A stretch of DNA of 64,000 nt, taken from NCBI RefSeq assembly GCF_003991155.1, contig NZ_CP031293.1. One strand, written 5' to 3'. Positions 9,001-12,000 of this stretch are shown here, one piece after another. The position numbers were made by a program. Position 1 is the stretch's first letter, and each line of letters opens with the position of its first letter. The stretch comes from Escherichia coli. Lineage in GTDB: Bacteria > Pseudomonadota > Gammaproteobacteria > Enterobacterales > Enterobacteriaceae.

Positions 9001-12000
9001 GTCGTAGTCACTTCCGGCACCACCTCTGAAGTTTTGCTCAACAAACTGAATGAAGAGCAAAAAATGAACATGCGCATCATCAGCGCCAAAGATCACGGTG
9101 ACTCTTTCCGGACCCTGGAAAGCGGTCGTGCCGTTGCCTTTATGATGGATGATGCTCTGCTGGCTGGTGAACGTGCGAAAGCGAAGAAACCAGACAACTG
9201 GGAAATCGTCGGCAAGCCGCAGTCTCAGGAAGCCTACGGTTGCATGTTGCGTAAAGACGATCCGCAGTTCAAAAAGCTGATGGATGACACTATCGCTCAG
9301 GTGCAGACCTCCGGTGAAGCGGAAAAATGGTTTGATAAATGGTTCAAAAACCCAATTCCGCCGAAAAACCTGAACATGAATTTCGAACTGTCGGACGAAA
9401 TGAAAGCACTGTTCAAAGAACCGAATGACAAGGCACTGAACTAATTACAAGAACCAGGGGCGGAAATTCCAGCCCTCTCGATTGTTACGTAGCACGGACA
9501 GACTATACGCCTGATGGTCGTTCCCCATCGGGCCTGAAAACCGCAATACGCTGGGTAACAATCTTCGAGGGTAGCAGTTAACGCTGCTACCCTCTTTTTT
9601 CTGGAGTAGATTTATGTCTATAGACTGGAACTGGGGTATTTTTTTACAACAAGCCCCGTTCGGCAACACCACCTATCTTGGTTGGATCTGGAGTGGTTTT
9701 CAGGTGACGATCGCTTTGTCGATCTGCGCCTGGATTATCTCTTTCCTCGTCGGTTCATTTTTCGGCATTTTACGTACCGTTCCAAACCGTTTTCTCTCCG
9801 GTCTGGGTACGTTGTATGTCGAACTGTTCCGCAACGTGCCGTTGATTGTGCAATTCTTTACCTGGTATCTGGTGATCCCGGAGCTGTTGCCGGAGAAAAT
9901 CGGCATGTGGTTTAAGGCCGAGCTGGATCCCAATATTCAGTTTTTCCTTTCATCCATGCTCTGCCTGGGGCTGTTTACCGCCGCCCGTGTTTGCGAACAG
10001 GTACGCGCCGCGATTCAGTCGTTGCCGCGTGGGCAAAAGAATGCCGCGCTGGCAATGGGTCTGACGCTACCGCAGGCTTACCGCTATGTACTGCTGCCTA
10101 ATGCTTATCGCGTTATCGTCCCGCCGATGACCTCCGAGATGATGAACCTGGTGAAAAACTCCGCCATCGCCTCGACTATCGGTCTGGTAGATATGGCGGC
10201 GCAGGCGGGTAAATTGCTCGATTACTCAGCTCATGCCTGGGAGTCGTTTACCGCCATTACGCTTGCGTATGTGTTGATTAACGCGGTTATCATGCTGGTA
10301 ATGACGCTGGTTGAACGTAAAGTTCGCCTGCCCGGCAACATGGGGGGCAAATAATGTACGAGTTTGACTGGAGTTCCATAGTTCCTTCCCTGCCATATCT
10401 GCTCGACGGGCTGGTGATCACCCTGAAAATCACCATCACGGCAGTCGTGATTGGTATTTTGTGGGGTACGATGCTGGCAGTAATGCGCTTGTCCAGCTTT
10501 GCGCCGATTGCCTGGTTTGCCAAAGCCTACGTTAACTTATTCCGCTCGATTCCTTTAGTCATGGTTTTGCTGTGGTTTTATCTGATTGTGCCGGGTTTTC
10601 TGCAAAACGTGCTGGGATTATCGCCAAAAAATGATATCCGTTTAATTTCGGCGATGGTGGCGTTTTCGATGTTTGAAGCGGCCTACTATTCAGAGATTAT
10701 CCGTGCCGGTATTCAAAGTATTTCCCGTGGTCAGTCGAGCGCCGCGCTGGCGTTGGGGATGACTCACTGGCAGTCGATGAAACTGATTATTCTGCCGCAG
10801 GCGTTCCGCGCGATGGTGCCGCTGCTGCTCACTCAGGGCATCGTACTGTTCCAGGATACCTCACTGGTGTATGTGTTATCTCTGGCCGATTTCTTCCGTA
10901 CCGCCTCAACCATTGGTGAGCGTGATGGTACGCAGGTCGAGATGATCCTGTTTGCCGGGTTTGTTTATTTCGTTATTAGCCTTAGCGCATCGTTGTTGGT
11001 CAGCTACTTGAAAAGAAGGACAGCATAATGATTACCCTGAAAAATGTTTCAAAATGGTATGGTCACTTTCAGGTGCTGACCGACTGCTCAACCGAAGTGA
11101 AAAAAGGCGAAGTGGTGGTGGTTTGCGGCCCGTCTGGTTCCGGCAAATCAACGCTGATTAAAACCGTCAACGGCCTCGAACCGGTGCAGCAAGGTGAAAT
11201 CACCGTCGATGGCATCGTGGTTAATGATAAGAAAACCGATCTGGCAAAGCTGCGTTCCCGCGTCGGGATGGTGTTTCAGCATTTCGAGCTGTTCCCCCAT
11301 CTGTCGATTATCGAAAACCTGACCCTGGCGCAGGTGAAAGTGCTTAAACGCAATAAAGCGCCGGCTCGTGAAAAAGCATTGAAATTGCTGGAGCGCGTCG
11401 GGCTTTCCGCACATGCCAATAAGTTTCCGGCGCAGCTTTCCGGCGGCCAGCAGCAGCGAGTGGCGATCGCTCGCGCATTGTGCATGGATCCTATTGCCAT
11501 GCTGTTCGACGAACCAACGTCGGCGCTGGATCCGGAGATGATCAACGAAGTGCTGGACGTGATGGTCGAACTGGCGAACGAAGGAATGACGATGATGGTG
11601 GTGACCCACGAAATGGGCTTTGCCCGTAAAGTGGCGAATCGGGTGATCTTTATGGACGAGGGTAAAATTGTCGAAGACTCGCCGAAAGACGCTTTCTTCG
11701 ATGATCCGAAATCGGACCGCGCAAAAGACTTCCTCGCGAAAATCCTGCATTAATCACTCTGGCGCGCATACCCAAGTGCGCGCCATCTCACGCTTTATCG
11801 TTTCGCTCCTCGTATCTGTTACATCCTGGCGGTACCCTTGTCGCAAAGAAGCACACAACAAGGAGCAACAATGGCACTGCCAATTCTGTTAGATTGCGAC
11901 CCAGGTCATGACGACGCTATCGCAATCGTTCTCGCCCTCGCCTCACCAGAGCTTGATGTCAAAGCAATTACGTCTTCCGCCGGAAACCAGACACCAGAAA

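What the first reader, a model, noticed from the sequence alone, without database searches (positions are those of the whole stretch)
9445..9600. gltI–gltJ spacer has the architecture of the SroC sponge sRNA
The 169-nt intercistronic region ends in a strong terminator immediately before the gltJ start. This matches the known arrangement in which a processed fragment of gltIJKL mRNA (SroC) accumulates and titrates GcvB. Combined with the C/A-rich GcvB-type site in the gltI leader (8430..8495), the locus carries both target and sponge of the same sRNA circuit.
Basis: established knowledge. Interest (0 to 1): 0.3.

Follow-up and report, generated by a model that had tools for sequence, protein, structure and literature searches.

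The report
SroC small RNA in E. coli gltI–gltJ spacer

Summary
Confirmed and already known. The window is Escherichia coli. gltI is 8536-9444 and gltJ starts at 9614, so the spacer is 169 nt. It ends in a 12-bp terminator hairpin (9567-9594, -22.7 kcal/mol) followed by six T, 13 nt before the gltJ ATG.

The Rfam sroC model (RF00369) matches 9440-9602 full length at 174.8 bits against a threshold of 45. Window 9430-9620 is 100% identical to K-12 MG1655, where sroC (b4763) is annotated at the same position.

Both published GcvB contact sites are present. GGACAGAC (9496-9503) complements GcvB 156-163, and UCGUUCC (9518-9524) complements GcvB 13-19. They lie 14 nt apart, as published. In 30 other enterobacterial loci, found with a pattern that left these sites unspecified, both sites are invariant while the flanking stems covary.

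The gltI leader (8458-8498) is the best match to the GcvB R1 seed among 60-nt + strand windows of the 64 kb.

Two corrections. The RNA starts 5 nt inside gltI (9440), not at 9445. SroC does not simply titrate GcvB: pairing triggers RNase E decay of GcvB while SroC survives.

Interest is low.

The parts
9440..9602 (+). SroC small RNA (163 nt): 3'-UTR-derived fragment of the gltI mRNA
   Evidence: Rfam RF00369, 174.8 bits, full length. 100% identical to annotated K-12 sroC b4763. MFE -66.3 kcal/mol, z = -6.5.
9437..9444 (+). 5' end region of SroC around the gltI stop codon (TAA 9442-9444); site of RNase E processing according to the literature
   Evidence: K-12 annotation and the Rfam model both start at 9440. 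Processing by RNase E was shown in Salmonella (PMC4474525). No + strand promoter-like site in 8100-12000. The exact cleavage position in this strain is not testable here.
9457..9476 (+). Stem-loop 1 of SroC
   Evidence: MFE structure. 83.5% of cells paired across 30 distinct sequences, with 2 pairs changed on both sides.
9480..9563 (+). Long stem-loop 2 of SroC, carrying both GcvB contact sites (internal bulge and apical loop)
   Evidence: MFE structure. Helices 2-5 are 83-100% paired. The apical stem is 100% paired, with 3 pairs changed on both sides.
9496..9503 (+). GcvB contact site GGACAGAC, complementary to GcvB nt 156-163 (R3/SL4 region)
   Evidence: Exact 8-nt complement, -15.3 kcal/mol. 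Corresponds to the published site holding C63 (Salmonella numbering), which pairs with GcvB G160. 8/8 positions invariant in 31 sequences although unspecified in the search pattern.
9518..9524 (+). GcvB contact site UCGUUCC in the apical loop, complementary to GcvB nt 13-19 (SL1)
   Evidence: Exact 7-nt complement, -10.9 kcal/mol. Corresponds to the published site holding C87, which pairs with GcvB G14. 7/7 positions invariant in 31 sequences although unspecified in the search pattern.
9567..9602 (+). Rho-independent terminator (stem 9567-9594, U tract 9595-9600): 3' end of SroC and of the monocistronic gltI mRNA. It must be leaky for gltJKL to be expressed.
   Evidence: 98.3% of cells paired across species. 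Described as a leaky terminator in PMC4474525.
8458..8498 (+). [quoted passage not shown]
   Evidence: Predicted duplex with GcvB nt 60-95 (R1), -37.7 kcal/mol. The 60-nt window at 8441 ranks first of 3197 + strand windows (-38.2; mean -18.2, sd 4.1). The literature places the element 45 nt upstream of the AUG.
8536..9444 (+). gltI, periplasmic glutamate/aspartate binding protein; parental mRNA of SroC
   Evidence: NF008063, 667 bits. RefSeq annotation of an identical strain.
9614..11753 (+). gltJ, gltK, gltL (permeases and ATPase), downstream of the leaky terminator

Best explanation
Window 9440-9602 (+) is the E. coli sroC gene, a 163-nt Hfq-associated small RNA made from the 3' end of the gltI mRNA.

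How it is made: transcription from the gltI promoter partly stops at the Rho-independent terminator 9567-9600. RNase E then cuts the resulting gltI transcript near the stop codon (about 9440). This releases a very stable, tightly folded fragment with a 5' monophosphate.

How it acts: two short exposed segments, GGACAGAC (9496-9503, internal bulge) and UCGUUCC (9518-9524, apical loop), pair with two distant parts of GcvB (nt 156-163 and 13-19). This exposes GcvB to RNase E, while SroC itself survives. Loss of GcvB lifts repression of many amino-acid and peptide transporter mRNAs. One of these is gltI itself, whose C/A-rich leader (about 8458-8498) pairs with the GcvB R1 seed.

Shown here: identity, position, fold, terminator, both complementarities, and their conservation and covariation. 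Taken from published experiments in Salmonella and E. coli, not tested here: processing, Hfq dependence, GcvB decay and the physiological role.
For: - Rfam sroC matches at 174.8 bits against a threshold of 45, full length.
- The stretch is 100% identical to the K-12 region annotated as sroC b4763.
- The 8300-9700 stretch (gltI leader through the gltJ start) is at least 80% covered in 5421 of 5426 complete E. coli genomes, at a median of one place per genome.
- gcvB is present in 5425 of 5426 E. coli genomes.
- Exact 8-nt and 7-nt complements to GcvB lie 14 nt apart in SroC and 136 nt apart in GcvB. The papers report 7-8 nt sites, 14 nt apart in SroC and 137 nt apart in GcvB.
- In 31 sequences from Escherichia, Citrobacter, Kluyvera, Raoultella, Klebsiella and Enterobacter, the two contact sites are 15/15 invariant. 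They were N in the search pattern. The adjacent unspecified stem positions are only 5/15 invariant.
- The stems stay paired in 93.5% of cells, against 35-52% when partners are slid. There are 77 cells with a change on both sides, against 31.6 in shuffles.
- All eight of the 30 loci that were rescanned hit Rfam sroC at 140-177 bits.
- Published experiments support each step: compensatory mutations C63G/C87G with G160C/G14C, RNase E and Hfq dependence, and GcvB half-life of 1.7 min versus more than 15 min (PMC4474525). E. coli SroC shortens GcvB half-life from more than 16 min to 3.8 min (PMC10250213). SroC chimeras make up about 70% of GcvB RIL-seq reads in stationary phase (PMC9299463).
Against: Nothing found argues against it. 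Limits:
- No RNA data exist for this particular strain.
- gcvB lies outside the window, so its presence in this genome is inferred from its near-universal presence in E. coli.
- The loci used for the conservation analysis were found with a pattern anchored on conserved SroC bases, so they cannot show where the family ends.
- The mapping of Salmonella numbering onto E. coli (offset +3) is my inference.
- gltI regulation by GcvB is listed as 'conserved', not 'verified', for E. coli in PMC9299463.
Confidence: 0.97

Rival explanations
1. The spacer is only a cis-acting intercistronic terminator or stabiliser hairpin that sets the GltI:GltJKL ratio. The binding protein is made in excess, and the RNA fragment has no trans-acting role.
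For: A strong terminator sits 13 nt before gltJ. Miyakoshi et al. themselves say the leaky terminator produces a monocistronic gltI mRNA and a higher GltI stoichiometry. This role is real, but it is not exclusive of the trans-acting role.
Against: A terminator alone does not need 120 nt of conserved, covarying upstream structure. It also does not need two unpaired segments that are invariant across six genera and exactly complementary to GcvB. Published compensatory mutations show a trans function.
Confidence: 0.02
2. On top of being SroC, the region is a regulated (riboswitch- or factor-controlled) terminator. An alternative pairing of the terminator 5' arm with upstream conserved bases would decide between SroC release and read-through into gltJKL.
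For: In folds of truncated transcripts, the terminator 5' arm (UCGAG/GAGGG, 9565-9571) pairs with CUCGA/CCCUC (9473-9481) until the 3' arm is made. Window 9564-9575 is 10/12 invariant. Miyakoshi et al. note conserved nucleotides outside the GcvB contacts and raise this possibility.
Against: The full-length RNA prefers the terminator by about 9 kcal/mol. The candidate alternative pairs are invariant, so there is no covariation for them. A U-to-C change in Raoultella and Klebsiella breaks one version of the pairing without compensation. No Rfam cis-regulatory family matches here.
Confidence: 0.1
3. The interval encodes a small protein on the opposite strand (mechanical ORF 9445-9672, minus strand, 75 aa, GTG start).
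For: The ORF exists in the six-frame list.
Against: Spacer length across 31 species falls in all three classes modulo 3, from 158 to 170 nt. Variation follows base-pairing rather than codon positions. The ORF runs antisense into gltJ.
Confidence: 0.01
4. It is a copy of a dispersed repetitive extragenic palindrome (REP/BIME-type element), not a specific gene.
For: REP elements often sit between the first and second genes of ABC transporter operons (established knowledge, for example malE-malF).
Against: The 8300-9700 query occurs at a median of one place per E. coli genome and at most two. The sequence matches a specific Rfam sRNA family at 174.8 bits.
Confidence: 0.005

Closest known systems
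SroC (Rfam RF00369; E. coli K-12 b4763; Vogel et al. 2003; Miyakoshi, Chao & Vogel 2015, PMC4474525)
   Same: Everything tested: sequence (100% to K-12), position between gltI and gltJ, length of 163 nt, fold, terminator, both GcvB contact sites and their 14-nt spacing.
   Different: Nothing at the sequence level. The RefSeq record of an identical strain (NZ_CP029747.1) does not annotate it. That is a gap in annotation, not in biology.
Other processed 3'-UTR-derived Hfq sRNAs (CpxQ, SdhX, NarS, OppZ, MalH)
   Same: Released by RNase E from the 3' end of an mRNA, share the mRNA's terminator, carry a 5' monophosphate and bind Hfq (PMC9438474).
   Different: SroC comes from an operon-internal terminator rather than the operon end. 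Its main target is another sRNA (GcvB, also MgrR) rather than an mRNA.
Other sRNA sponges/decoys (chbBC spacer for ChiX; 3'ETS-leuZ for RyhB/RybB; AgvB for GcvB)
   Same: An RNA fragment that base-pairs with a regulatory sRNA and lowers its activity.
   Different: SroC triggers RNase E cleavage of GcvB and is not consumed. The chb trap makes ChiX susceptible to PNPase. Naming 3'ETS-leuZ and AgvB as sponges, AgvB being prophage-encoded and mimicking a CA-rich mRNA target of the R1 seed, rests on my own knowledge. SroC contacts SL1 and R3.

Membership tests
SroC sRNA (RF00369) | Scores above the curated gathering threshold of the Rfam covariance model | tested here: met
   174.8 bits against 45, model 1-163 of 163, E = 7e-37, window 9440-9602 +.
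SroC sRNA (RF00369) | Lies between gltI and gltJ on the coding strand, overlapping the gltI stop codon | tested here: met
   gltI 8536-9444 and gltJ 9614-10354. The element starts at 9440. Same layout as K-12 b4763.
SroC sRNA (RF00369) | Sequence homology to the type E. coli K-12 sroC | tested here: met
   191 of 191 identical positions.
SroC sRNA (RF00369) | 3' end formed by a Rho-independent terminator in the gltI-gltJ spacer | tested here: met
   12-bp stem plus T6, -22.7 kcal/mol, z = -7.5. Conserved across species. Actual termination was not measured.
SroC sRNA (RF00369) | Two short GcvB-complementary segments (7-8 nt), 14 nt apart, in the bulge and apical loop of stem-loop 2 | tested here: met
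   GGACAGAC 9496-9503 against GcvB 156-163. UCGUUCC 9518-9524 against GcvB 13-19. 14 nt lie between them, and both are unpaired in the MFE fold. Matches.
SroC sRNA (RF00369) | Conserved secondary structure supported by compensatory changes | tested here: met
   93.5% of cells paired against 35-52% for slid partners. 9 pairs have changes on both sides. 0 of 500 shuffles reach the covariation score. Caveat: the loci were ascertained with a partly conserved pattern.
SroC sRNA (RF00369) | 5' end made by RNase E processing (5' monophosphate), with no promoter of its own | not testable with these tools
   Only indirect support: no + strand promoter-like site in 8100-12000. Shown experimentally in Salmonella.
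SroC sRNA (RF00369) | Binds Hfq and destabilises GcvB in vivo | not testable with these tools
   Published for Salmonella and for E. coli with the same sequence.
SroC sRNA (RF00369) | Partner sRNA GcvB encoded in the same genome | tested here: inconclusive
   gcvB is not in the 64-kb window. It is present in 5425 of 5426 complete E. coli genomes, so it is almost certainly present here.
GcvB R1 target (gltI 5' UTR C/A-rich element) | C/A-rich stretch upstream of the ribosome-binding site, about 45 nt before the AUG, complementary to the GU-rich R1 seed of GcvB | tested here: met
   Window 8458-8498 pairs with GcvB 60-95 at -37.7 kcal/mol. The 60-nt window holding it ranks first of 3197 + strand windows. 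Position agrees with PMC3879156.
GcvB R1 target (gltI 5' UTR C/A-rich element) | Repression of gltI translation by GcvB | not testable with these tools
   Verified in Salmonella. Listed as 'conserved' with RIL-seq, CLASH and MAPS reads in E. coli (PMC9299463 Table 1).

The most novel reading that the evidence does not exclude
Besides being SroC, the invariant bases outside the GcvB contacts may form a conditional anti-terminator. These are CCCUCUCGAUUG (9473-9484) and AAUCUUCGAGGGUAGC (9559-9574). Pairing between them would compete with the terminator 5' arm. The cell could then tune how much transcription ends as gltI-SroC and how much reads through into gltJKL, and so tune GcvB levels. Miyakoshi et al. 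2015 raised this as an open possibility. My truncated-transcript folds show such a pairing is available before the terminator 3' arm is made. It has no covariation support, and the terminator is about 9 kcal/mol more stable.
Probability: 0.1. Interest if true: 0.4.

Novelty: already known. Interest (0 to 1): 0.05.

Why it matters
It matters only as a correct annotation. SroC links expression of the glutamate/aspartate transporter to the whole GcvB regulon, which represses about 1% of genes and centres on amino-acid and peptide uptake. It is the textbook case of an mRNA-derived sponge that feeds back on its own parental mRNA. The circuit is published and experimentally dissected in Salmonella and E. 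coli, so finding it intact in another E. coli strain adds no new biology. One practical point: the RefSeq annotation of an identical strain omits the sRNA, so sequence-based recognition like this fills an annotation gap.

Tried and rejected
- Full-length RNAduplex of SroC against GcvB gave a meaningless end-to-end duplex, because it ignores intramolecular structure. I used exact complementary words and short-segment duplex energies instead.
- The supplementary alignment of Miyakoshi 2015 (Fig S1A), which would fix the Salmonella numbering and 5' end, is not held as text. The +3 offset between Salmonella and E. coli numbering therefore stays an inference. It rests on matching G61/G65/G84 and C63/C87 to E. 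coli G58/G62/G81 and C60/C84.
- The genome contigs pattern scan returned no Salmonella, Yersinia or other distant loci, because it needs exact matches at 22 specified bases. It cannot show where the family ends, nor the truncated Yersinia form described in the paper.
- The antisense ORF, a REP element and a terminator-only role were considered and rejected (see rival explanations).
- Other strong GcvB-R1 matches in the window are at chance level or antisense to genes, and I did not pursue them. Examples are 37561 and 63461 (+ strand) and the rihA start at 11881.

Full report
**Observation.** The window is Escherichia coli. The stretch 8300-9700 is 100% identical to several complete genomes, and 5421 of 5426 complete genomes hold at least 80% of it. 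gltI runs 8536-9444 (302 aa; NCBIfam NF008063, 667 bits). gltJ, gltK and gltL follow at 9614-10354, 10354-11028 and 11028-11753.

The spacer ends in the best terminator-like site of the region: stem 9567-9594, 12 pairs, 7 G-C, loop 4, then TTTTTT at 9595-9600. The hairpin folds at -22.7 kcal/mol, z = -7.5. The T run ends 13 nt before the gltJ ATG.

**Identity.** A scan of the whole window against Rfam 15 at gathering thresholds gives sroC (RF00369) at 9440-9602 on the + strand. It covers model positions 1-163 of 163, at 174.8 bits against a threshold of 45, E = 7e-37.

The K-12 MG1655 record annotates ncRNA sroC (b4763) at 686681-686843, between gltJ and gltI and overlapping the last 5 nt of gltI. 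Window 9430-9620 is identical to that region at 191 of 191 positions. The element folds into a tight structure of two stem-loops plus the terminator, at -66.3 kcal/mol, z = -6.5, with 0 of 200 shuffles as stable.

**Mechanism-relevant anatomy.** Miyakoshi, Chao and Vogel 2015 (PMC4474525) showed that SroC is cut from the gltI-sroC transcript by RNase E, in a 5'-end-dependent and Hfq-assisted reaction. Its 3' end comes from a leaky Rho-independent terminator. It pairs with GcvB through two short sites of 7-8 nt that lie 14 nt apart in SroC but far apart in GcvB. This pairing triggers RNase E decay of GcvB: its half-life is 1.7 min with SroC and more than 15 min without it. SroC is not co-degraded.

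I took GcvB from K-12 (sequence) and looked for exact complements:
- SroC 57-64, GGACAGAC (window 9496-9503), complements GcvB 156-163.
- SroC 79-85, UCGUUCC (window 9518-9524), complements GcvB 13-19.
- The two sites are separated by 14 nt in SroC and by 136 nt in GcvB.
- The short duplexes are worth -15.3 and -10.9 kcal/mol.

In the MFE fold, the first site lies in the internal bulge of the long stem-loop and the second in its apical loop. This matches the probing data in the paper. The published compensatory pairs C63:G160 and C87:G14 map to C9499 and C9523 if Salmonella numbering is E. coli numbering plus 3. That offset is my inference.

E. coli evidence exists for the same sequence. SroC shortens GcvB half-life from more than 16 min to 3.8 min (PMC10250213). 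SroC chimeras are about 70% of GcvB RIL-seq reads in stationary phase (PMC9299463). gcvB itself lies outside the window but is present in 5425 of 5426 complete E. coli genomes.

**Related sequences.** I scanned one genome per species with a pattern that specified 22 conserved SroC bases but left both GcvB contact sites and the stem arms between them as N. It returned 30 loci from Escherichia, Citrobacter, Kluyvera, Raoultella, Klebsiella and Enterobacter. All eight that I rescanned hit Rfam sroC at 140-177 bits.

In the 31-sequence alignment, the two contact sites are invariant at 15 of 15 positions. The equally unspecified stem positions next to them are invariant at only 5 of 15. The stems stay paired through compensatory changes:
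- 93.5% of cells are paired, against 35-52% when partners are slid by 1-3 columns.
- 77 cells have a change on both sides, against 31.6 in shuffles.
- The apical stem is 100% paired, with up to four pair types at one position.

Spacer lengths range from 158 to 170 nt and fall in all three classes modulo 3. This rules out a conserved reading frame on either strand, including the mechanical antisense ORF 9445-9672.

**The target half of the circuit.** Window 8458-8498 pairs almost continuously with GcvB nt 60-95, the R1 seed, at -37.7 kcal/mol. The 60-nt window starting at 8441 ranks first of 3197 + strand windows (-38.2; mean -18.2, sd 4.1).

The literature places the gltI element 45 nt upstream of the AUG, where it also acts as a translational enhancer (PMC3879156 citing Sharma et al. 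2007). Miyakoshi et al. state that gltI mRNA is itself a GcvB target, so SroC feeds forward on its own parental mRNA. They also showed that the CA-rich site contributes little to GcvB depletion, so the sponge activity resides in SroC.

1. The RNA is 9440-9602, not 9445-9600. Its 5' end lies inside gltI.
2. 'Titrates' is too weak a word. SroC acts by inducing GcvB degradation and is not consumed, which suggests catalytic action.
3. SroC has further reported targets: the MgrR sRNA, and the fliE and flhBAE mRNAs (review PMC9438474).

**Rivals.**
- A terminator-only or stabiliser-only role is true as a partial function. It cannot explain the invariant GcvB-complementary loops or the published point mutants.
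- A REP-type repeat is excluded, because the 8300-9700 query containing the element occurs at a median of one place per genome.
- An antisense ORF is excluded by the indel pattern.
- One idea remains open: the region may also be a regulated terminator. In folds of truncated transcripts, the terminator 5' arm (9565-9571) pairs with 9473-9481 until the 3' arm is made. Window 9564-9575 is 10/12 invariant. However, the terminator is about 9 kcal/mol more stable in the full RNA. The alternative pairs show no covariation, and one version of the pairing is broken in Raoultella and Klebsiella. I give it about 10%.

**Verdict.** The finding is correct and the feature is already known in every respect that can be tested from sequence. 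It is a correct annotation and reveals no new biology. Interest 0.05.

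Noticed in passing
window 8434-8437 and 6205-8082; L002 5852-7046: K-12 MG1655 carries IS5D inserted at CTAA, 104 nt upstream of the gltI ATG, at the 5' edge of the C/A-rich leader. This strain has no IS5 there. Instead it has a 625-aa rhomboid-family protease gene (minus strand) between lnt and gltI. The 6000-8540 query that holds this gene is at least 80% covered in 3231 of 5426 complete E. coli genomes. It may affect which promoter drives gltI-sroC in K-12.
   Followed up: partly
window 8439-8440 and 8468: The gltI leader differs from K-12 at three positions: AA to GG at 8439-8440, and T to C at 8468. The last lies inside the stretch predicted to pair with GcvB R1.
   Followed up: no
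window 9440-9602; NZ_CP029747.1 1112654-1112822: The RefSeq (PGAP) record of a strain identical over 8300-9700 lists no ncRNA between gltI and gltJ, whereas the K-12 record annotates sroC. This is an annotation gap only.
   Followed up: yes
window 38793-39241 (-): The Rfam cspA thermoregulator model hits at 136 bits (threshold 78). The gene there is cspE, a paralogue, so the hit covers the cspE 5' UTR plus coding sequence and is not cspA itself.
   Followed up: no
window 52220-52328 (+) and 56091-56184 (-): The Rfam rnk leader (124.9 bits) lies upstream of rnk. STnc70 (44.1 bits, barely above its threshold of 40) lies upstream of ahpC.
   Followed up: no
L009 1870-2150 (Citrobacter braakii): SroC is present (149.6 bits), but the nearest upstream ORF on that strand (317 aa, not identified here) stops about 126 nt before it. 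The first ~30 aligned bases (the region that in E. coli holds the gltI tail and the SroC 5' end) are unrelated to the E. coli sequence. The overlap of the SroC 5' end with the gltI stop codon is therefore not universal.
   Followed up: no
window 9473-9481 with 9565-9571: Potential alternative pairing between conserved upstream bases and the terminator 5' arm. It is seen in folds of transcripts truncated before the terminator 3' arm. It could relate to the leakiness of the terminator.
   Followed up: partly
window 11881-11940 (+), start of rihA: Predicted duplex with GcvB R1 of -32.5 kcal/mol, z about -3.5 among 3197 windows, which is roughly chance level. rihA is not mentioned in the main text of the GcvB regulon paper.
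   Followed up: no
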